Source: a virus (Duplodnaviria; Caudoviricetes). Taken from it: a stretch of DNA of 64,000 bases. Positions 56,624-64,000 of this stretch are shown piece by piece; the first letter of the stretch is position 1; every line of letters starts with the position of its first letter. Under the pieces are notes generated by a model that had not been told where the DNA came from, made no database searches, and was given only the letters and a program-made list of their open reading frames with translations. The position numbers and the translations under genes were made by a program. The DNA lies in IMG/VR virus record IMGVR_UViG_2816332320_000003, positions 99,173-163,172 of that record; one strand, given 5' to 3'.

Positions 56624-57073
56624 GTGAGTAAAATGTCTCCCACTCCATCCATTGATGCCTTAGTCGTTAAGGTTCAAAACTTAGAAAAAACTGTGGATGA
56701 AATCAAAATTGAAAGGAGGGAAAGTCAAAAGATACTTGTTGATACCTTGAAATCACTTCAAGAGAATGCCGTTCGTCAAACGACAATTATGGAAGTAATG
56801 GAGGAACGAGCGAAGCAGCAAGATGTTCGCCTTGACAAAATGGATGAAAAATTAGATCAGGTCAATATTGACGTTCAAACTATTAAAGTCAGAAGTGAAA
56901 CAATGTTATCAGAAGATAAGAATGAGTTTGATAAGGACAGCAAATCCACTTGGTATCAAAACTTCATTTCTAACAACCAAAAGTTCATTTGGGTTATTGT
57001 TCTGATTACTCTCGGGGTAGCCTTGGGTCTAAAAGTACCAGAAATCATGTCATTCTTAAAAATTTTCATTTAG
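56624..57073 (+). CDS. XhlA/BhlA-like lysis membrane protein
   Basis: Coiled coil plus C-terminal TM segment, upstream of the endolysin. Confidence 0.6.
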   Translation: MSKMSPTPSIDALVVKVQNLEKTVDEIKIERRESQKILVDTLKSLQENAVRQTTIMEVMEERAKQQDVRLDKMDEKLDQVNIDVQTIKVRSETMLSEDKNEFDKDSKSTWYQNFISNNQKFIWVIVLITLGVALGLKVPEIMSFLKIFI

Positions 57074-57082
57074 GAGGCAATC

Positions 57083-57841
57083 ATGATTGTTCAACATTAT
57101 ATAACTGTCAATAAATTTTCCAGACCAGCCATTAAACTAAAGTCTGTTCGAGGCATAGTCATGCACTACACAGCTTCTCCTTCTGCCCCTGCAATCAATA
57201 TTGTTAAATATTTTGATAGTCTTAAGTATCAGAAAGATACTTCTGATGCAAGGTTTGCTTCAGCACACTATTCAGTTGATGATTACAATACATATCAAGC
57301 GATACCAGATGACGAAATGGCTTATCACTGTGGTTCAAAAGATTATACATCAGAAGCACTGAATCGTCTGGGCAGTTATCCAAACAACTGCACAATTGGG
57401 ATTGAGATGTGTATCGACAAGAATGGAAACATTACAGAGAAAACTTTTCAAAAGGCAGCAGCATTGGTAGTAATACTTTGTAAGAAGTTTGGGCTGACTG
57501 AGAAAGACATTTGGACACATCACGGAGTTGTTGGATGGAAGCGATGCCCATTGCCTTGGGTTAACAATCCTTCTGAGTTTGAACGCTTCAAAACCCTAGT
57601 GAAACAATTACTCAACAACAAAGTTGAAAATAAGCCTGACCAATCAAAGGAGGATAAATTTATGCAATTCATTATGTCTGAGCAAGGCAAACAGTACGCA
57701 AAGGGAGCTATTGATAGCTTGGCAAAGAAAGGACATTTGAAAGATCCTGACATCTGGGTAAAACGTGTTGATGACGGTACTATTTATCAGGAATTGCCTT
57801 GGCTAACTCTGCTGTTACTTGATCGAGTCTCTAATAAATAA
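57083..57841 (+). CDS. N-acetylmuramoyl-L-alanine amidase endolysin (Amidase_2)
   Basis: IVMHYT, SAHY.VD, AYHCG, IGIEMC and H...KRCP motifs. Confidence 0.92.
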   Translation: MIVQHYITVNKFSRPAIKLKSVRGIVMHYTASPSAPAINIVKYFDSLKYQKDTSDARFASAHYSVDDYNTYQAIPDDEMAYHCGSKDYTSEALNRLGSYPNNCTIGIEMCIDKNGNITEKTFQKAAALVVILCKKFGLTEKDIWTHHGVVGWKRCPLPWVNNPSEFERFKTLVKQLLNNKVENKPDQSKEDKFMQFIMSEQGKQYAKGAIDSLAKKGHLKDPDIWVKRVDDGTIYQELPWLTLLLLDRVSNK

Positions 57842-57947
57842 AATTATACAATAAAATATCACTTTTATTCGAAAAGCACGACTTAAAAACCCTTATGTAC
57901 CAAGGGTTTCACGATTCGTAAAATTTATAAAATGGAGGAATTTAATC

Positions 57948-58259
57948 ATGGATACAATTTTGGGTCAATTCACATTGGAGGCTATTCTTTCGATTCTAAC
58001 CCTTGTAGGAATATGGGCTGTAATTACGTTCGTACCTCTTATTAAAAATAAAATTAAGCGTGAGTCTGCTGATCGTGCGGTTCGATTTGTTGAGGATGCG
58101 TTTGCAGATATTAAGGGCAGTGAAAAATACAATCAGGCAGCAAAATGGTTCGTTGATCGTCTAGCTAAATGGCATATTAAAGTAACAGAAGACGAAGTAA
58201 AGGGACTTATTGAGTCGGCTTTGGTTCGCATGAAAAAAGAATATGAAAAGCAATGGTAA
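57948..58259 (+). CDS. LL-H-type holin
   Basis: One TM segment; AVRFVE...G.EKY..A...I.V.E.E...LIESA. Confidence 0.8.
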   Translation: MDTILGQFTLEAILSILTLVGIWAVITFVPLIKNKIKRESADRAVRFVEDAFADIKGSEKYNQAAKWFVDRLAKWHIKVTEDEVKGLIESALVRMKKEYEKQW

Positions 58260-58262
58260 TTT

Positions 58263-58296
58263 AATACCCCCTAGAATTTTCTAGGGGGTATTTTTT
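58263..58296 (+). terminator. terminator ending the late operon
   Basis: AATACCCCCTAG / CTAGGGGGTATT stem followed by a T tract. Confidence 0.8.
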
Positions 58297-58506
58297 CTCA
58301 TTTTTAGGCGACAACGTTGACTGCTTGGCACATTCTGGATAAGCTTATTTGAGCAACAATTTCTCCTGCTAACTCCCTCGTAGAGAACACCTACAATACG
58401 GGGGAGTTTGTTCTGTTAATCCTCCTCTATCCAGACAGAAGAACATGCAAAAAAGAAGACTATCCCAAATTCAAGAAAATGACTGAGGAATAGTCTTCTT
58501 TTGCTT

Positions 58507-59373
58507 TTATTCTTTTTCTTCTACCTTTTCAACAACCCAATCGCCCTCACCATCTTTTTCACGATTTGATGATGCCTTGTTGTTTTTATTGTTTTTGGAA
58601 CTGTCTTCTTTACCAAAATAAACAACTACTTTTTCACCCTTAGCGCGCTGGAGCAATAAGAGTGCCTTTTTTTCATTCTCATGCACCAATATCAAAGGAA
58701 CACTATCGCCACCCTTTTTGGGGAATTCTACTGACTGGATAAATAATGAGGTAACATCTCTAGAGGTTAAAGAACCCGGAGGTTGCTCTTTTAGTGATTC
58801 ATATTGAGAACTATCACATACAATCCACTCGTCTTTATTTAAATTGTGTGCTTCCATGATGTCATCCCAAGTATTTTCTAACTGCTCTTGATATTCTGTT
58901 GAACGTAAATGTTGAATGTCACCCTTTTTGGAACTTGATTCTTCAGCACTCTCTGGCGCAAATGCTTCCTCACCCTTTTTAAGTTTATCCTCACTGAACT
59001 CCTTTGCATAATCTCCATTATTATCTTCAATTCGATGTACAGCATTTACCTCCCAATTACTACTTCTTTTCTTATTTGGATGGTCTTCTGTGATCGATAC
59101 CCTAAAACCATTTCTTGAGTTGGATGCCTTATCTAAATATTCACCATCTCGGAAAACTTCATAATAAACCTTTACAGATTTAACATCTCCCTCGCCTCGT
59201 GTATATCCAAACACATCTGTAACTGAATCAAGAGGATCACCATCGTAAACATCTATGCCATAAGAATCGAACCAAACATCTTCTGAATACGCACTTGCAA
59301 AATTAGAAAGTCCAATAATCCCAAGGAGGGTCGTAGTTGCTAAAGATGCAGTTACAATTTTTTTGACTTTCAT
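58507..59373 (-). CDS. secreted hypothetical protein (moron)
   Basis: Sec signal MKVKKIVTASLATTTLLGIIGLSNFASA; opposite orientation with its own terminator hairpin near 58451-58501. Confidence 0.7.
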   Translation of the reverse strand: MKVKKIVTASLATTTLLGIIGLSNFASAYSEDVWFDSYGIDVYDGDPLDSVTDVFGYTRGEGDVKSVKVYYEVFRDGEYLDKASNSRNGFRVSITEDHPNKKRSSNWEVNAVHRIEDNNGDYAKEFSEDKLKKGEEAFAPESAEESSSKKGDIQHLRSTEYQEQLENTWDDIMEAHNLNKDEWIVCDSSQYESLKEQPPGSLTSRDVTSLFIQSVEFPKKGGDSVPLILVHENEKKALLLLQRAKGEKVVVYFGKEDSSKNNKNNKASSNREKDGEGDWVVEKVEEKE

Positions 59374-60029
59374 CCTTACCATTCCTTTCCATTGTGAATC
59401 ATTATATTTGTTATGACGTATTGGTTGTTTTTACGTTTCACTGGGATTAGCTCAATTCACAATAACTTTCCCTCCTGATTCACCCATATTTTTCCATACA
59501 AATAAAACGTAGCACATATTTTAATTGTTGTCTATATTTACCAAATGTGTTTTTATCCCTCGGAAAGATCATCTAAATACGATGAAGTCTTTTGAATATA
59601 TCTATGGATATTGGTCGCTATTTAAATATCTAGCTGCATTTTCGCAAACCCATATTGATACTACAAAATACTCGATGATTATAAAAAAGTGCAGATAGGT
59701 GTATATATAAACCTCTGCACTACCATCATTTTTTTAGTGATTATCACTGATCAATCCTATCTGGAACGCTCAACGATGTCGGTACCCGACAACTCAAAAA
59801 TGGCATTCAATATTATCCTGAGAAATACTCAAGTTATTTAGTTCAAGATACTGTCTTATAATCCACTTTCTTGTTGAATCATTTACCTCACCTACTCCCC
59901 TGTGATGAATTCATTATACAGAAAAAAGCTCATTTAATAATGAGGAAGCAGTACCTTTGGTGTAGCTATGAGGCTTTTCAGTAACCTCATAAAATTGAGG
60001 GGGTTTATTTAAGTTAGGTTTCAGGGTAA

Positions 60030-60242
60030 TTAATCTATACGCCTGTAAACAAAAATATCTTCTATGGTGTAAACTTTGCCCAGTTTATATTCAACTAACA
60101 ACGTATTTAATGTATGAAGTATCTTCTTGATAGTATCAAATTCGATACGCTTTGTTGTTCCTTTATACAAAGCACCTACTGTATGAGGTCTAACTTTCGC
60201 TTTAATTGCAACTTCGTTTCTACTAACTCTCATTTCATTCAA
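60030..60242 (-). CDS. Cro/XRE (HTH_26-like) regulator divergent from agr-like operon; 5' end anomalous
   Basis: RNEVAIKAKVRPHTVGALYKGTTKRIEFDTI..I...LN...IEDIF. Confidence 0.7.
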   Translation of the reverse strand: MNEMRVSRNEVAIKAKVRPHTVGALYKGTTKRIEFDTIKKILHTLNTLLVEYKLGKVYTIEDIFVYRRID

Positions 60243-60432
60243 AGTGGTGTCGAACGTAAATTAGATACTCCATCCATATGTTATCTTCCTTTACTCTAAT
60301 TTTAATGATAATAATAGCATGTGCCATGACGTATACTCTGGGTATTTTAAAATAGAAACTTGCACCTCCCAATATATATACATAATGGTACAATCAACAT
60401 AGAATACTAATTTTAGAGAATGGGGAAGAAAA

Positions 60433-61128
60433 ATGGAATTTATCCTATTTACTTTGTTTTCTTCATTAGAGTATTTGGCAATGTTTGTTTTTATCTTTAC
60501 TTGGTTCAATTTCCCAATAAGAGAATACAAGGGGCAGATATTTTTTGTTATCGTTTGTCTAAACCTGGCATCACACATATTTAGATATGGCATAGGAATT
60601 GACGAGTATTGGTGGGGAATGTTCGTTGCAATCTTTGTGCAAAATCTATTTCTAATGCTTGGTTTTAGATACGTGTGGAATATTCAATGGTTCTATGCTG
60701 GCATCGTTACATTATTTCCTTGGACAACGTACACATTAATTCAGGCATTAATATTCATAGTTTTGCAAAAGTTTGGTACGCTGAACTATCTTGCTGACCT
60801 TCAAAGTTCTTCAGGTTCAGGTATTTCAGTAATAGGATTTGTATTACAAACTATTACAGCCATTGTCATTTTGATTTTATGTAGGCTGATTCGTAAATTT
60901 GAGCTATGGTTTGAATTTGTGCCTGAATCCCCCAGACCAGTTTGGAACCTTAAAGAGAACAGATGGCTATTCGTAGCACAAGTTTTGTCAGTTGCCATTA
61001 CTGTAATCTTTTTATATGTGTTCAATAAAACACCTGTGTTGCAGTATCTGATCCTTGTGTTTTATGCTGTAGTCATTTTTGTAATCTATTATCTGTGCAG
61101 AAAGAGGAATTTAATTGAGTTTGATTGA
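60433..61128 (+). CDS. polytopic membrane protein resembling AgrC sensor domain, no kinase domain
   Basis: About 7 hydrophobic segments, 231 aa, overlaps the agrB start. Confidence 0.7.
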   Translation: MEFILFTLFSSLEYLAMFVFIFTWFNFPIREYKGQIFFVIVCLNLASHIFRYGIGIDEYWWGMFVAIFVQNLFLMLGFRYVWNIQWFYAGIVTLFPWTTYTLIQALIFIVLQKFGTLNYLADLQSSSGSGISVIGFVLQTITAIVILILCRLIRKFELWFEFVPESPRPVWNLKENRWLFVAQVLSVAITVIFLYVFNKTPVLQYLILVFYAVVIFVIYYLCRKRNLIEFD

Positions 61129-61660
61129 AAATGCAGCAGAAAAACTTGCTCGGTCAATAAAAGAAGCAAACCCACACGATACGAAAAGTGTAGAGGTAAT
61201 GAAGTTTTCGTTAATTGCAGTAATTGGAACTGGATCAGCAGTGGCTATTTCCATGGTTTTATCTGCCCTATTAGGAACATTAACAGAAACGCTTGTAACT
61301 ATTTTAGCCTTTGTATTACTTAGATCATTTTCAGGTGGATTTCATTTTAAGACAGCAGAAGCGTGTACAATTACAAGCATTGTTGGATCTGTAGTATTGC
61401 CATTAATTCCAATTAGCCAGCACATGGGAAATACACTAATGGTGTTAACTTTGATAATTTTGACTTGGTTAGCACCAATTGGAATGAATCAGTCTAGGAT
61501 TTTCGATGTGAAGCACTATCCATATCTTAAAATTCTATGCATCCTAATCGTTGCTTCGAATTTCCTTTGGATGTCAGATATTTTAACTAAAGCATTTTTT
61601 GTACAAGCGGTGACCCTACTCATCCTGAAGGGAGGTGAATTGAATGAGAAAGCTCAATAA
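61115..61660 (+). CDS. agrB: AgrB-family peptide-processing membrane protease
   Basis: LRSFSGGFHFKTAEAC (catalytic His/Cys); LAP motif; multiple TM segments. Confidence 0.9.
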   Translation: MSLIENAAEKLARSIKEANPHDTKSVEVMKFSLIAVIGTGSAVAISMVLSALLGTLTETLVTILAFVLLRSFSGGFHFKTAEACTITSIVGSVVLPLIPISQHMGNTLMVLTLIILTWLAPIGMNQSRIFDVKHYPYLKILCILIVASNFLWMSDILTKAFFVQAVTLLILKGGELNEKAQ

Positions 61661-61784
61661 AGCTACTATGGCATACTATGCCTCTAAAGCACTCGCTGCT
61701 CTTGCAATCCTAATTGTAACTCCATTTTCGGCATCATTAGTACACCAACCTGAAGTACCAAAAGAGCTACTTAAGAAACAATAA
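61644..61784 (+). CDS. agrD: AgrD-like cyclic lactone autoinducer propeptide (46 aa, not in ORF track)
   Basis: RBS GGGAGGTG; MRKLNKATMAYYASKALAALAILIVTPF-SASLV-HQPEVPKELLKKQ. Confidence 0.85.
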   Translation: MRKLNKATMAYYASKALAALAILIVTPFSASLVHQPEVPKELLKKQ

Positions 61785-61797
61785 GAGGAGACTTACA

Positions 61798-62166
61798 ATG
61801 TTCAAACACCTTGCTGTTAGTGTGGGAGAAGGAGGAAAAAGATACAAAGTTATCGATCTAAATGATGTATACATGATTAAGAAAGTAAATGCTACAGATA
61901 AAAGGATACTCCACTTCCACACTACAGACGGGGAGTATGCTACAATAACAGATGCAGATATCATGCTTGATGCTATTAGAGCATCATATGACAACGATGA
62001 CTTTGTGTTGAGCGAGAAAGGGATACTTGTTAATTCTCGATACGTTGAAGGATTTGACTCAAAAGATAGAATTATTTATTTTGGCAATGGAGAGCGAACT
62101 ACAGCATCACTTTCAAAGAAGAAAAGTATAGAAAACAAATTAGATGAATTAAGAAGAGGTACATGA
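61798..62166 (+). CDS. stand-alone LytTR-domain protein
   Basis: IDLNDVYMI..FHTTDGEY..F...KGILVN...V.GFD; no receiver domain. Confidence 0.7.
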   Translation: MFKHLAVSVGEGGKRYKVIDLNDVYMIKKVNATDKRILHFHTTDGEYATITDADIMLDAIRASYDNDDFVLSEKGILVNSRYVEGFDSKDRIIYFGNGERTTASLSKKKSIENKLDELRRGT

Positions 62167-62335
62167 TTAAGACATGTACCTCCTACCATAAATATATTAA
62201 GATGTCAACGTTTGATTTTGTGCATTTTCTAGTAGTTACCGATCTGGAAATAATATGATATTCTTATGTCAAGAACAAAACACATATGCAATTTGTTGTT
62301 GACAAAATATTAGAGGTCGGATAACGGAGGAGGTT

Positions 62336-62665
62336 ATGGTGAAAGTTCCTGTAATTAATTCAGATGGCTCACAAATTCATTGGATTGATATTAAAGATAT
62401 TAACAATGTCCAACGTCAAAAAAATGATATTGTGGTGCACACGAGCAATGGGACTTTCTATCAAATTACCGCGCTGGATGATTGGATACTGTTATTGGGA
62501 TCTACATTTATTCGAATCGATTCTGGAATACTGGTAAGAAAAGATGCCATTAAAGAATTCGATTCGAAACTTCAAGTTGTCCTTCTCAATGATGGCAGCA
62601 TGTTAAGTGTTGCGAGACAAAGAATTCCATTAGTTAAGAAAGCGATAGAAGAGACTAAATGCTAA
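62336..62665 (+). CDS. stand-alone LytTR-domain protein
   Basis: IDIKDI..V..VHTSNG..FIRIDSG.LV...I.EFD..L.DG..LSVARQR. Confidence 0.8.
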   Translation: MVKVPVINSDGSQIHWIDIKDINNVQRQKNDIVVHTSNGTFYQITALDDWILLLGSTFIRIDSGILVRKDAIKEFDSKLQVVLLNDGSMLSVARQRIPLVKKAIEETKC

Positions 62666-62767
62666 ATGAAAATTGTCTTTATAAATGTAAACGGCATCCC
62701 TATCCATCCGCCAAGATAACTAGGAATGCCGATCCCCAAAATAGAAATTCTGGAGGTCTGACTATTT

Positions 62768-63199
62768 ATGACTATTGCTAGTTTAACCCATCATTTTTAC
62801 GATGTAAAGTCCCCCACTAGCGTTTTTGGTGAGTTTATTTTAAACATTTCTTTAAATGCAGAGAGTTATCAAGAGGCACGTTTTAAATTGAACAACAATA
62901 ATTTACACCTCTCGACAATTACAGTTCGCACATTAGATGGCAATGAGTATGTTTTAAATATATGTGGTTTCGACATAAAGTGGTACGCCCATGATTCTGG
63001 TAAAACATATGGTAGACTCAAATTGAATGTCAGTTTTGATTTGGCAGTACGGAAAGAAGATGCCTTGTATGCAGCGAGCTTGCTGCTTATGGATTTGTAT
63101 ATTGTAATGGAGGATAAAATTATACTACAAAAAGCAAATCATGAAATGATTAGTGTAGAATTACACGATTTCTCTCTTGATTGGACTTGCACAAACTAA
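62768..63199 (+). CDS. hypothetical protein
   Basis: 143 aa, RBS GGAGG. Confidence 0.6.
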   Translation: MTIASLTHHFYDVKSPTSVFGEFILNISLNAESYQEARFKLNNNNLHLSTITVRTLDGNEYVLNICGFDIKWYAHDSGKTYGRLKLNVSFDLAVRKEDALYAASLLLMDLYIVMEDKIILQKANHEMISVELHDFSLDWTCTN

Positions 63200-63325
63200 A
63201 TCAAAAAAATAGGAATCACTCTATGACATCCTTCATGGGGGTGTTTCTTATTTTTTTGATTGTGTAAAACGGCATAGTATTAGGAAGAAGGATTTAAAAT
63301 TAAAAACACCTTCTCAGCGAAGGTG

Positions 63326-64000
63326 TTAAAATTCAAATCTCTGCTCTTTTTTATGAAATACCCAAAACAGTAGGATATAACATAACAACATACCCACACA
63401 ATTAATCAATAAGTATACCCCACCTGATAAACCTGCATAACGCATTACTAGTAAAAACACTACACTCATGATCATTCCTAGAAGCATTAATTTGTTGTCA
63501 CGTTGTTTCAAGTTTATTTGTTTAGTCCTCTGCGGAACAAAAGACCATCCATAGTTTAAGTATTTTGCAATTAAAGCAAGCATTGTGTAAATAGTTGCAG
63601 TGAATAACTGAAGCATATACGCCCAAAATGTAATTGTTCCATCTGCTCCTACGTCATCAGCCAAGTTAAAGAGTGAAAAACTGTCAAGTATATAAAAGAT
63701 TATCCCTTGTACAACTAAAAATCCAATACTTGGTATTAACGCCATCGAAGCAGCATAGAACCAATGAATTCTCATTATTAATACGATACACGAAATCAAA
63801 AGGATAACTTGGAGGAATACTGCGTAACTCCCTATTTGAGCAGAAAATCTTGAGAAGTAAGAAACTAGATTAAGTATTATCGCTATGAAAATGAATGGTG
63901 GCAGGTTCTCTTTAAATGAGAGACGAAACAATACAGATAGCATGTACAAGATGGATAGATATTCTAGGGATGAAAAGAACAGGAATTTGACTATATCCAT
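63326..64000 (-). CDS. second membrane-only AgrC-sensor-like protein, paralogue of 60433-61128
   Basis: Shares FSSLEYL, LNL.S...R, WFYA, Q..I and FVP motifs. ATG is at the window edge. Confidence 0.75.
   Translation of the reverse strand: MDIVKFLFFSSLEYLSILYMLSVLFRLSFKENLPPFIFIAIILNLVSYFSRFSAQIGSYAVFLQVILLISCIVLIMRIHWFYAASMALIPSIGFLVVQGIIFYILDSFSLFNLADDVGADGTITFWAYMLQLFTATIYTMLALIAKYLNYGWSFVPQRTKQINLKQRDNKLMLLGMIMSVVFLLVMRYAGLSGGVYLLINCVGMLLCYILLFWVFHKKEQRFEF

What the first reader, a model, noticed from the sequence alone, without database searches (positions are those of the whole stretch)
60433..62166. Phage-encoded, kinase-less agr-like quorum-sensing operon
Seen: four tightly coupled genes: a membrane-only receptor-like protein, agrB with catalytic His/Cys, an unannotated agrD, and a LytTR-only protein. 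No HisKA/HATPase or receiver domain occurs anywhere in the window. Known: canonical agr signals through AgrC kinase to AgrA (REC + LytTR). C. difficile phage phiCDHM1 carries agrB/D/C; SPbeta-group phages use arbitrium (AimR/AimP); streptococcal LytTR regulatory systems (HdrRM, BrsRM) pair a membrane inhibitor with a LytTR activator without phosphorylation. Inference: a cyclic-peptide communication system in which peptide binding to the membrane protein releases or sequesters a LytTR factor. It could be an alternative to arbitrium for lysis-lysogeny decisions, or a way to manipulate host signalling.
Basis: partly seen in the sequence, partly recalled or inferred. Interest (0 to 1): 0.92.

Follow-up and report, generated by a model that had tools for sequence, protein, structure and literature searches.

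The report
Kinase-less agr peptide cassette in prophage
A 165-kb SPbeta-like prophage of a Brevibacillus brevis-group bacterium carries, just inside its right attachment site, an agr-type cyclic-peptide signalling cassette whose sensor has no kinase part and whose regulators have no phospho-receiver. It may therefore signal without phosphorylation, but this cassette type was remarked in 2014 in three published phages and is still untested.

Summary
Window 60433-62166 encodes four coupled genes: a 7-helix membrane protein (Mem1), AgrB with invariant His77/Cys84, a 46-aa AgrD and a LytTR-only protein. A second LytTR-only gene, a 143-aa unknown and a convergent Mem1 paralogue follow. The 163-kb provirus record has no kinase ATPase or receiver domain.

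The cassette is phage cargo. An 11-bp core (TATCCGGCGAT) at both junctions splits a host transporter gene, GC jumps there, and attR lies about 2.6 kb beyond the cassette.

Mem1 is a homologue of the AgrC sensor domain. Its family profile hits the N-termini of genuine AgrC-type kinases (E to 2e-11), and a pLDDT-93 model resembles them (TM 0.63).

The four-gene layout is the usual one for this family. It occurs on chromosomes and in phages Abouo, Davies, Emery, Harrison and Paisley. Some relatives also keep a full AgrA and AgrC.

The likeliest mechanism is a phosphorelay-free peptide sensor coupled to LytTR. This is inferred, not shown.

Hargreaves et al. 2014 noted kinase-less cassettes in three of these phages. 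This scan has found the type before, in at least 18 other genomes. The same prophage also holds a weak arbitrium-like receptor-peptide candidate.

The parts
60030..60242 (-). Small XRE-type HTH regulator, transcribed divergently from the cassette
   Evidence: Pfam HTH_26 at E 7.7e-7. A homologue sits in the same divergent position in L013 (44% identity), and an HTH_26 gene does so in L011. Its role as cassette regulator is inferred.
60243..60432 (.). Divergent promoter region between the HTH gene and Mem1
   Evidence: Promoter-like hexamers at 60326-60353 and 60377-60405 (not above chance). An 8-bp inverted repeat lies at 60258-60265 / 60295-60302. No 9-bp direct repeats with an 18-24 bp offset at 7 of 9 or better.
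60433..61128 (+). Mem1: 231-aa seven-helix membrane protein, a kinase-less homologue of the AgrC sensor domain
   Evidence: No Pfam family; matches phrog_15604 'membrane protein'. HMMER found 273 cluster representatives, nearly all 210-240 aa. The AF2 model has pLDDT 93 and pTM 0.90. ESM Atlas gives TM 0.63 over 193 residues to HATPase_c_5 kinases. The family profile matches the N-termini of AgrC-type kinases at E 2e-11 to 1e-3.
61115..61660 (+). AgrB: membrane cysteine endopeptidase and cyclase for AgrD
   Evidence: PF04647 at E 7e-21. His77 and Cys84 are invariant in 48 of 48 sequences; R70, G75 and P121 are also invariant.
61644..61784 (+). AgrD propeptide (46 aa), with predicted five-residue Ser-lactone ring SASLV before HQPEVPKEL
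   Evidence: TIGR04223 at E 1.4e-6, 28.3 bits against a cut-off of 19. Homologous peptides in related cassettes carry Cys or Ser at the same position, eight residues before E(V/I)P.
61798..62166 (+). LytTR1: 122-aa LytTR-only DNA-binding protein with no receiver domain
   Evidence: PF04397 at E 2e-8. The family profile's best solved relative is the S. aureus AgrA LytTR domain, E 1.2e-9. Orthologue in L011 (36% identity).
62336..62665 (+). LytTR2: 109-aa second LytTR-only protein, the orthologue of the LytTR-only gene that follows agrD in most related cassettes
   Evidence: PF04397 at E 7.8e-11. About 30% identical to the L013 and L062 LytTR-only proteins and 42% to the second one in L011.
62768..63199 (+). 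143-aa conserved unknown that travels with the cassette
   Evidence: No family in Pfam, NCBIfam, PHROGs or the Atlas. Homologues end the cassette in L004, L011, L013 and L062. A paralogue lies at G000 64490-64888.
63219..63327 (.). Back-to-back terminator-like hairpins between the convergent units
   Evidence: plus-strand hairpin at 63225-63245 and minus-strand hairpin at 63327-63305.
63326..64000 (-). Mem2: 224-aa paralogue of Mem1, whose start codon is the last codon of the window and record
   Evidence: BLASTP against Mem1 gives 28% identity, E 7e-22. Matches phrog_15604 at E 8.5e-18. 95% identical to its L004 orthologue, dN/dS 0.14.

Best explanation
This is an agr-type cyclic-peptide signalling module without a phosphorelay, carried as cargo by an intact SPbeta-like prophage of about 165.5 kb. 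The prophage has a large serine recombinase and is inserted in a transporter gene of a Brevibacillus brevis-group host.

Shown here:
- The gene set and its coupling.
- The position of the cassette inside attL and attR.
- AgrB with its catalytic His and Cys.
- An AgrD that fits the family model.
- Mem1 and Mem2 as homologues of the membrane sensor domain of AgrC-type kinases that end right after the last helix.
- LytTR1 and LytTR2 as AgrA-like DNA-binding domains with no receiver.
- Purifying selection on all genes.
- Recurrence of the same four-gene order across a large protein family and in five isolated phages.

Inferred:
- AgrB cuts and cyclises AgrD into a five-residue serine lactone (ring SASLV with a short N-terminal tail), which is exported.
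- Mem1 binds this peptide from outside, as AgrC does.
- Because neither partner can take part in phosphotransfer, the signal passes by direct contact. The cytoplasmic face of Mem (the conserved GFxFVP loop and the basic C-tail) would hold or release the LytTR-only protein, as the membrane inhibitors HdrM and BrsM do with their LytTR regulators.
- The freed LytTR protein then changes transcription of phage or host promoters in step with the density of cells carrying this phage.
- Mem2 and LytTR2 would form a second channel.
For: Prophage limits:
- An 11-bp core, TATCCGGCGAT, lies at both junctions and splits one host ORF (...GHGIALSGD | FIIQGAPTL...).
- GC rises from 0.32-0.38 to 0.45-0.51 at both ends.
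- The serine recombinase sits next to attL.
- A second prophage (L004) shares the cassette at 87% nucleotide identity. Homology ends just after the SASP gene, and the host flank differs.

No kinase or receiver:
- None in the provirus record.
- None in the complete genomes of phages Abouo, Harrison and Emery, which carry the same four genes beside their integrase or repressor genes.

Mem is an AgrC sensor homologue.
- In Brevibacillaceae, canonical loci run agrC-agrB, so Mem sits exactly where agrC would.

Linkage:
- All 48 Mem genes examined lie directly upstream of agrB, and 29 of the 48 cassettes have a LytTR-only gene next.
- This includes 5 of 5 informative arbitrary picks from distant family members.

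Other support:
- The LytTR-only family is nearest to the AgrA DNA-binding domain.
- dN/dS is 0.14-0.37 for all seven genes.
- Precedent for LytTR regulators controlled by a membrane partner without phosphorylation: Zou et al. 2018, PMC6193735.
Against: - No test of Mem-LytTR contact could be run.
- No 9-bp direct repeats of the LytTR type were found upstream of Mem1.
- Mem is linked to agrB more strictly (48 of 48) than to LytTR-only genes (29 of 48). A chromosomal Mem-AgrB-AgrD trio in the host species group has no regulator beside it.
- Some relatives carry Mem and LytTR-only together with a full REC-LytTR regulator and an AgrC-type kinase (L012, L013). Mem is therefore not simply a replacement for AgrC.
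- One family member is a Mem-AgrB fusion.
- Between the two prophages, AgrB and AgrD are far more diverged (72% and 76% amino-acid identity) than Mem1 (93%). This is not the receptor-ligand co-variation seen in staphylococcal agr groups.
- No expression data exist.
Confidence: 0.45

Rival explanations
1. Host-signal interference. The phage makes its own, possibly antagonistic, peptide. It also supplies a decoy sensor, Mem, which soaks up peptide or forms dead heterodimers with host AgrC-type kinases. It further supplies decoy regulators, the LytTR-only proteins, which occupy AgrA-type sites without needing phosphorylation. The last idea follows BlpS of pneumococci, which I cite from my own knowledge. 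The net effect would be to rewire or silence host quorum sensing in lysogens.
For: In L012 and L013, Mem and LytTR-only sit in one operon with a full AgrA and AgrC, as modulators would. In this prophage the cassette lies at the attR end, beyond the lysis genes and next to a spore-protein gene, which is typical of lysogenic-conversion cargo. Host-group genomes hold 4-5 REC-LytTR regulators and a chromosomal Mem-AgrB-AgrD locus that could be targets.
Against: The same four genes occur alone on chromosomes with no AgrC or AgrA nearby (L103, L054 and others), where there is nothing obvious to decoy. The Mem profile found no AgrC-type kinase in the host species group at E <= 1e-3. A decoy reading does not explain why agrBD is always retained.
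Confidence: 0.2
2. Mem is a partner of AgrB in making or exporting the peptide and is not a receptor. The LytTR-only proteins are regulated in some other way, and the peptide is sensed by a host kinase or not by this cassette at all.
For: Mem lies directly upstream of agrB in all 48 cases examined, and the two genes overlap by 14 nt in this window. One natural Mem-AgrB fusion exists (P0097). A Mem-AgrB-AgrD trio without a regulator is conserved in the host species group. Mem co-occurs with a full AgrC in L012 and L013.
Against: Mem is a homologue of the peptide-sensing domain of AgrC, not of any known protease or exporter. Descent from the agrC-agrB gene order of Brevibacillaceae explains the adjacency to agrB. 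AgrB was swapped (72% identity, dS 1.18) while Mem1 stayed 93% identical between the two prophages, which speaks against tight co-adaptation. Other agr systems need no such protein, according to established knowledge of S. aureus agr.
Confidence: 0.2
3. The cassette is a decaying remnant of an agrCBDA operon that has lost its kinase and receiver parts and no longer signals.
For: Related cassettes show a graded series: a full AgrC (L013), an N-terminally cut 277-aa kinase (L062), 204-207-aa remnants (L056, L058, L060, L063), and none here.
Against: All seven genes are intact and under purifying selection, with dN/dS 0.14-0.37. The Mem family has 273 clusters at 50% identity with constant length and enough co-variation to give a pLDDT-93 model. 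The four-gene order recurs in five isolated phages.
Confidence: 0.05

Closest known systems
Canonical agr quorum sensing (agrBDCA of Staphylococcus aureus, and the agrC-agrB loci of Brevibacillaceae seen here)
   Same: AgrB with catalytic His77 and Cys84. AgrD with an amphipathic leader, a five-residue ring position and an EVPKEL tail. A sensor-domain homologue and an AgrA-like LytTR domain. The gene order sensor-agrB-agrD-regulator.
   Different: The sensor ends after its seventh helix, with no DHp or ATPase part. The regulator has no receiver domain. No AgrA-type direct repeats were found. The ring residue is Ser rather than Cys. Phosphotransfer is therefore impossible within the cassette.
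Kinase-less agr cassettes of Brevibacillus phages Abouo, Davies and Emery and of Paenibacillus larvae phages Harrison and Paisley (remarked by Hargreaves et al. 2014, PMC3901668, for the first three)
   Same: The same four families in the same order, on temperate phages with no kinase or receiver anywhere in the genome. Emery, like this prophage, has two Mem genes.
   Different: Those cassettes sit between the integrase and the repressor or Cro genes of 44-59-kb phages. This one sits at the attR end of a 165-kb SPbeta-like prophage. It has two LytTR-only genes plus a convergent second Mem. Sequence identity to the phage cassettes is only 20-32%. The fourth gene of those phages is annotated 'peptidase' or hypothetical but is a LytTR domain.
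LytTR regulatory systems HdrRM and BrsRM of Streptococcus mutans (Zou et al. 2018, PMC6193735)
   Same: A receiver-less LytTR regulator is encoded with a polytopic membrane protein, and signalling needs no kinase. This is the only tested precedent for the proposed coupling.
   Different: The membrane protein belongs to another family, and the gene order is reversed (membrane protein first). A peptide synthase and propeptide lie between the two genes. The defining direct repeats upstream of the promoter were not found here.
agr3 locus of Clostridioides difficile phage phiCDHM1 (Hargreaves et al. 2014)
   Same: Phage-borne agrB and agrD with a sensor gene.
   Different: phiCDHM1 carries a full-length AgrC kinase and no regulator. 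This cassette has a sensor without a kinase plus two regulators.
Arbitrium (AimR-AimP) of SPbeta-group phages
   Same: Peptide communication encoded by a temperate SPbeta-like phage.
   Different: Arbitrium uses a linear hexapeptide imported to a cytoplasmic TPR receptor. This cassette has none of those parts. The same prophage holds a separate, weakly AimR-like HTH protein followed by a 31-aa secreted-peptide ORF.

Membership tests
agr quorum-sensing system (agrBDCA) | AgrB membrane endopeptidase with catalytic His and Cys | tested here: met
   PF04647 at E 7e-21. H77 and C84 are invariant in 48 of 48 sequences.
agr quorum-sensing system (agrBDCA) | AgrD propeptide with leader, Cys or Ser ring-forming residue and acidic/charged tail | tested here: met
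   TIGR04223 at 28.3 bits, cut-off 19. Ser or Cys at the conserved position across related cassettes. The peptide product itself has not been observed.
agr quorum-sensing system (agrBDCA) | AgrC: membrane sensor fused to an HPK10 histidine-kinase core | tested here: not met
   Mem1 and Mem2 contain the sensor domain only. No HATPase_c, HATPase_c_5 or SPOB_a domain occurs in the 163-kb record.
agr quorum-sensing system (agrBDCA) | AgrA: receiver domain plus LytTR domain | tested here: not met
   LytTR1 (122 aa) and LytTR2 (109 aa) are LytTR domains only. No Response_reg domain occurs in the record.
LytTR regulatory system (HdrRM/BrsRM type) | LytTR regulator without a receiver, co-operonic with a transmembrane protein | tested here: met
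   However, the membrane protein belongs to a different family and lies upstream, with agrBD in between.
LytTR regulatory system (HdrRM/BrsRM type) | The membrane protein inhibits the regulator | not testable with these tools
Genetics or a binding assay is needed.
LytTR regulatory system (HdrRM/BrsRM type) | Pair of about 9-bp direct repeats, 11-13 bp apart, just upstream of the operon -35 | tested here: not met
   No pair at 7 of 9 or better with an 18-24 bp offset in the 220 bp upstream of Mem1 or of its L004 orthologue. More degenerate sites are not excluded.
Arbitrium (AimR/AimP/AimX) | AimR-family TPR receptor with an adjacent AimP propeptide | tested here: not met
   Nothing of this kind lies in the cassette. 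Elsewhere in the prophage, a 448-aa HTH protein matches NF038310 only over its first 107 residues (23 bits, cut-off 70) and has no AimR hit in the PDB.
SPbeta-like prophage | Large serine recombinase at one end; insertion splits a host gene; very large genome with SPbeta-type tail genes | tested here: met
   A 505-aa Resolvase+Recombinase protein lies beside attL. The transporter gene is split around an 11-bp core. YomF_N and related genes are present. Length about 165.5 kb.

The most novel reading that the evidence does not exclude
Mem and LytTR-only form a new kind of signal pathway. In it, a cyclic autoinducing peptide is read by a seven-helix receptor that passes the signal to a DNA-binding protein by direct contact, with no phosphorylation. 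Temperate phages of Brevibacillus and Paenibacillus would use this pathway to count cells that carry them, and so set lysogeny, induction or host behaviour. In this prophage there would be two receptor-regulator channels.
Probability: 0.3. Interest if true: 0.85.

Novelty: new variant of a known kind. Interest (0 to 1): 0.6.

Why it matters
If the sensor-only protein and the bare LytTR domain signal together, agr-type peptide sensing can work without a two-component phosphorelay. That would be a new way to couple a membrane receptor to transcription. It would also make this the second peptide language of temperate phages after arbitrium, one that is widespread in Brevibacillus and Paenibacillus, including phages of bee pathogens.

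The family also offers a natural dissection of AgrC. It contains the sensor alone, the sensor plus a truncated kinase, and the sensor beside a full kinase.

This instance adds exact prophage limits, sequence-level proof of the AgrC-sensor relationship, a two-receptor and two-regulator version, and co-existence with a candidate arbitrium-like pair. The last point argues that the cassette is not merely an arbitrium substitute.

Tried and rejected
- Megablast of 57000-64000 against the phage collection gave no match.
- Word-based homologue searches for Mem1 and LytTR1 found only near-identical copies. The exhaustive HMMER search was needed.
- The first AF2 run, with 4 sequences, was useless (pLDDT 47).
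- Foldseek and VIA-align against the PDB gave only generic helical bundles (best Z 6.5), so no solved structure has this fold.
- hhalign of the Mem profile against one AgrC-type kinase (L013) was not significant. The relationship showed only with the profile against many kinases and by shape.
- The search for related loci with the broad alignment failed for lack of conserved stretches.
- A GGGTAT-containing motif shared upstream of Mem genes in a few phages is not general (0 of 25 other loci) and is not enriched in the window.
- A TAAATGAAA/TAAATGTAA repeat upstream of the 143-aa gene has the wrong spacing, and the L004 cassette has no intergenic region at that position.
- No RNA holder is listed among public runs, so there is no expression evidence either way.
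- The 143-aa protein has no family, Atlas or PHROG match.
- The host record itself is not held for whole-genome searches. I used genomes of the same species group instead.
Full report
**What is there**

Window 60433-62166 holds four co-oriented genes:
- Mem1, 231 aa, at 60433-61128.
- AgrB, 181 aa, at 61115-61660, overlapping Mem1 by 14 nt.
- AgrD, 46 aa, at 61644-61784, overlapping AgrB by 17 nt.
- LytTR1, 122 aa, at 61798-62166, after a 13-nt gap.

Family matches support these labels. AgrB matches PF04647 at E 7e-21 and LytTR1 matches PF04397 at E 2e-8. AgrD matches TIGR04223 above its cut-off. By established knowledge these are the catalytic pair of S. aureus AgrB.

The AgrD tail reads ...TPF-SASLV-HQPEVPKELLKKQ. 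Related cassettes have Ser or Cys at the same place, eight residues before E(V/I)P. A five-residue serine-lactone ring is therefore the natural prediction, and it agrees with scan note e1-5744672.

- A divergent HTH_26 gene at 60030-60242.
- A second LytTR-only gene at 62336-62665 (E 7.8e-11).
- A conserved 143-aa unknown at 62768-63199.
- Back-to-back terminators.
- A convergent paralogue of Mem1, called Mem2 here, at 63326-64000 (28% identity, E 7e-22).

**Kinase-less**

The window is the last 64 kb of a 163,172-bp IMG/VR provirus record. HATPase_c_5, HATPase_c and Response_reg find nothing anywhere in that record.

**Inside the prophage**

The same DNA lies in NCBI record CP023474.1, a 6.64-Mb chromosome. 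I fetched both flanks.
- On the left, a 505-aa large serine recombinase lies just outside the provirus record.
- Next to it, a host membrane-transporter ORF breaks off at ...GHGIALSGD.
- On the right, 738 bp beyond the window end, the ORF resumes at LSGDFIIQGAPTL...
- The two junctions share the 11-bp core TATCCGGCGAT.
- GC rises from 0.32-0.38 to 0.45-0.51 at both junctions.

The prophage is therefore about 165.5 kb. attR sits at window-equivalent position 64738-64748, and the cassette lies about 2.6 kb inside it.

A second prophage in a metagenome contig (L004) carries the same cassette at 87% nucleotide identity. Homology stops right after a small acid-soluble spore-protein gene that follows Mem2, and the host flank beyond that point is different.

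A host flank gene is 97-100% identical to genes of 13 genomes in the family of Brevibacillus reuszeri. This places the host in the 6.2-6.7-Mb B. brevis-like group.

**What Mem1 is**

Mem1 has no Pfam or NCBIfam family and no PDB relative.
- An exhaustive HMMER search with a Mem1/Mem2 profile found 273 cluster representatives. Almost all are 210-240 aa and stand alone.
- With 144 of them as an alignment, AlphaFold2 gave a seven-helix bundle at pLDDT 93 and pTM 0.90.
- The PDB holds nothing like it.
- The ESM Atlas shape search matched the membrane part of HATPase_c_5 (AgrC/NatK-type) kinases at TM 0.63 over 193 residues and TM 0.60 over 179 residues.

I then searched the family profile against 61 Brevibacillaceae genomes. 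It hit stand-alone genes strongly. It also hit, more weakly but significantly (E 2e-11 to 1e-3, covering profile positions 4-212), the N-termini of 440-494-aa ORFs. The four of these I ran through Pfam, and the six scored with my own models, are AgrC-type kinases (SPOB_a plus HATPase_c_5) that sit next to agrB or a REC-LytTR regulator.

Mem1 is therefore a homologue of the AgrC sensor domain that ends eight residues after its last helix. The positive-inside rule places the N-terminus outside and the C-terminus inside, as in AgrC. It also places a conserved GFxFVP loop (residues about 156-176) in the cytoplasm. This topology is my inference from the model.

In Brevibacillaceae, canonical loci run agrC-agrB. 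Mem thus occupies the agrC position, and the LytTR-only gene occupies the agrA position.

**How general the layout is**

tblastn with AgrB found the same four genes in complete genomes of isolated temperate phages: Brevibacillus phages Abouo (gp44-47), Davies and Emery (gp53/54-57, with two Mem genes), and Paenibacillus larvae phages Harrison and Paisley (gp38-41). In the three I inspected (Abouo, Harrison, Emery) the cassette lies beside the integrase or the repressor genes.

The fourth gene of these phages is annotated 'peptidase' or hypothetical, but it is a LytTR domain. Abouo, Harrison and Emery have no kinase or receiver anywhere in their genomes.

I examined 48 Mem genes in all, using the Pfam labels carried by the fetched contigs and my own HMMs.
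- Every Mem gene lies directly upstream of agrB.
- 29 are followed, after a small AgrD-like ORF, by a LytTR-only gene. This includes 5 of 5 informative arbitrary picks from distant family members.
- Several sit in Abouo-like or G000-like prophages, and others in plain chromosomal settings.

There are informative exceptions:
- A Mem-AgrB-AgrD trio with no regulator is conserved in the host species group.
- L073 and L075 have a REC-LytTR regulator in place of the LytTR-only gene.
- L012 and L013 have Mem, AgrB, AgrD and LytTR-only followed by a full AgrA and a full AgrC-type kinase.
- L062 has an N-terminally cut 277-aa kinase, and four loci have 204-207-aa remnants.
- One family member is a Mem-AgrB fusion.

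**Selection**

I compared the window with L004.
- All seven genes show dN/dS of 0.14-0.37, so they are maintained by selection.
- AgrB (72% amino-acid identity, dS 1.18) and AgrD (76%) are much more diverged than Mem1 (93%), LytTR1 (96%) and Mem2 (95%). This looks like an allelic swap of the synthase-propeptide pair alone.

**Mechanism**

The parts list supports a peptide-signalling module. The absence of both phosphotransfer halves from the sensor and the regulator, across many lineages, points to direct protein-protein coupling. The LytTR regulatory systems of S. mutans are the only tested precedent (PMC6193735).

This step is inferred, and I could not test it. The hallmark direct repeats of LytTR sites were not found upstream of Mem1. 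No RNA data exist.

The strict Mem-agrB linkage, the fusion protein and the regulator-less trio keep a biosynthesis or export role alive. The co-occurrence of Mem with a full AgrC and AgrA keeps a decoy or modulator role alive. I give the direct-coupling sensor model about 0.45, each of those two rivals 0.2, and decay 0.05.

**Role for the phage**

In Abouo, the cassette lies between the integrase and the repressor and Cro-like genes. In Harrison and Emery it lies close to the integrase. Both settings suit a role in the lysis-lysogeny decision.

In this prophage the cassette lies beyond the holin and amidase genes, at the attR end, next to an sspC-like gene. That position is typical of genes expressed from the prophage.

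The same prophage also has, about 88 kb to the left of the cassette, a 448-aa HTH-plus-helical protein. Its N-terminus weakly matches AimR (E 2.7e-6, below the cut-off). A 31-aa ORF with a signal-like start follows it directly. If that pair is an arbitrium-like system, the agr-like cassette is an addition to it here and not a substitute.

**Prior knowledge**

Hargreaves et al. 2014 (PMC3901668) already wrote that phages Davies, Emery and Abouo carry a putative agr cassette. [quoted passage not shown] They did not note the LytTR gene.

The two phage genome papers only list AgrB in tables. I found no functional study in the library.

This scan has reported the same cassette type 23 times, in at least 18 other genomes.

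The present case is thus a new variant or instance of an uncharacterised, recurrent agr derivative. It is not a first sighting.

Noticed in passing
L007 13131-13141 (attL core; CP023474.1 3295788-3295798) and L005 14306-14316 (attR core; window-equivalent 64738-64748): The IMG/VR provirus record is trimmed at gene borders and misses both true ends. About 1.57 kb on the left, including the 505-aa large serine recombinase, and about 0.75 kb on the right lie outside it. The prophage splits a host membrane-transporter gene around the 11-bp core TATCCGGCGAT.
   Followed up: yes
G000:C1:70927-72375, minus strand (locus L092 451-1899), outside the window: A 448-aa HTH plus helical-repeat protein matches AimR weakly over its first 107 residues (NF038310, E 2.7e-6, below the cut-off). 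A 31-aa ORF, MKAAKAKLLMALAYIVPVALVILQQDPGGGW, follows it directly. Together they form a candidate RRNPP or arbitrium-like receptor-propeptide pair. Similar pairs lie beside the cassette in L004 (427 aa + 46 aa) and in phage Emery (gp60 + gp61).
   Followed up: partly
L005 13796-13984 (window-equivalent 64228-64416), minus strand: A small acid-soluble spore-protein gene (Pfam SASP, phrog_10367) is the last gene of the prophage before attR, much as sspC lies in SPbeta (the SPbeta comparison is from my own knowledge). It is conserved in the second prophage, L004.
   Followed up: partly
window 61115-61784 versus L004 10689-11352: AgrB (72% amino-acid identity, dS 1.18) and AgrD (76%) are far more diverged between the two prophages than the flanking Mem1 (93%) and LytTR1 (96%). 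This looks like an allelic replacement of the synthase-propeptide pair without the presumed receptor. The predicted ring changes from SASLV to SAALV.
   Followed up: partly
L013 5980-10777 (IMG/VR provirus G062); L062 4490-8739; L012 4950-9648: Relatives of the cassette keep a full REC-LytTR regulator and an AgrC-type kinase after Mem-AgrB-AgrD-LytTR (L013, L012), or an N-terminally cut 277-aa kinase (L062). Four loci (L056, L058, L060, L063) have 204-207-aa remnants. In L013 the cassette sits between TubZ/TubR-like genes and a homologue of the 143-aa gene. G000 has only a paralogue of that gene at this spot (64490-64888).
   Followed up: partly
P0097 (408 aa; L012 5001-6227): A natural fusion of Mem and AgrB in one ORF. 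It may be a true fusion, or a frameshift across the overlapping stop and start.
   Followed up: no
L071, L072, L074 and L076-L084 (for example L077 8042-9351): Genomes of the host species group carry a conserved chromosomal Mem-AgrB-AgrD trio (peptide ...STASFGFVGKPEIPEELKK) with no regulator beside it and variable flanks. This trio is a possible cross-talk partner of the phage cassette.
   Followed up: partly
L008 4654-5022 (Abouo gp47); L009 4648-5004 (Harrison gp41); phrog_15081: The fourth gene of the cassette is annotated 'peptidase' in the Abouo and Harrison GenBank records and in PHROGs, and 'hypothetical protein' in Emery. It is a LytTR DNA-binding domain (Pfam E about 1e-6 for Abouo and Harrison).
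   Followed up: yes
window 58507-59382, minus strand: A 291-aa secreted-looking protein with no family lies between the holin gene and the cassette. It is conserved in L004 at about 88% nucleotide identity. Its function is unknown.
   Followed up: no
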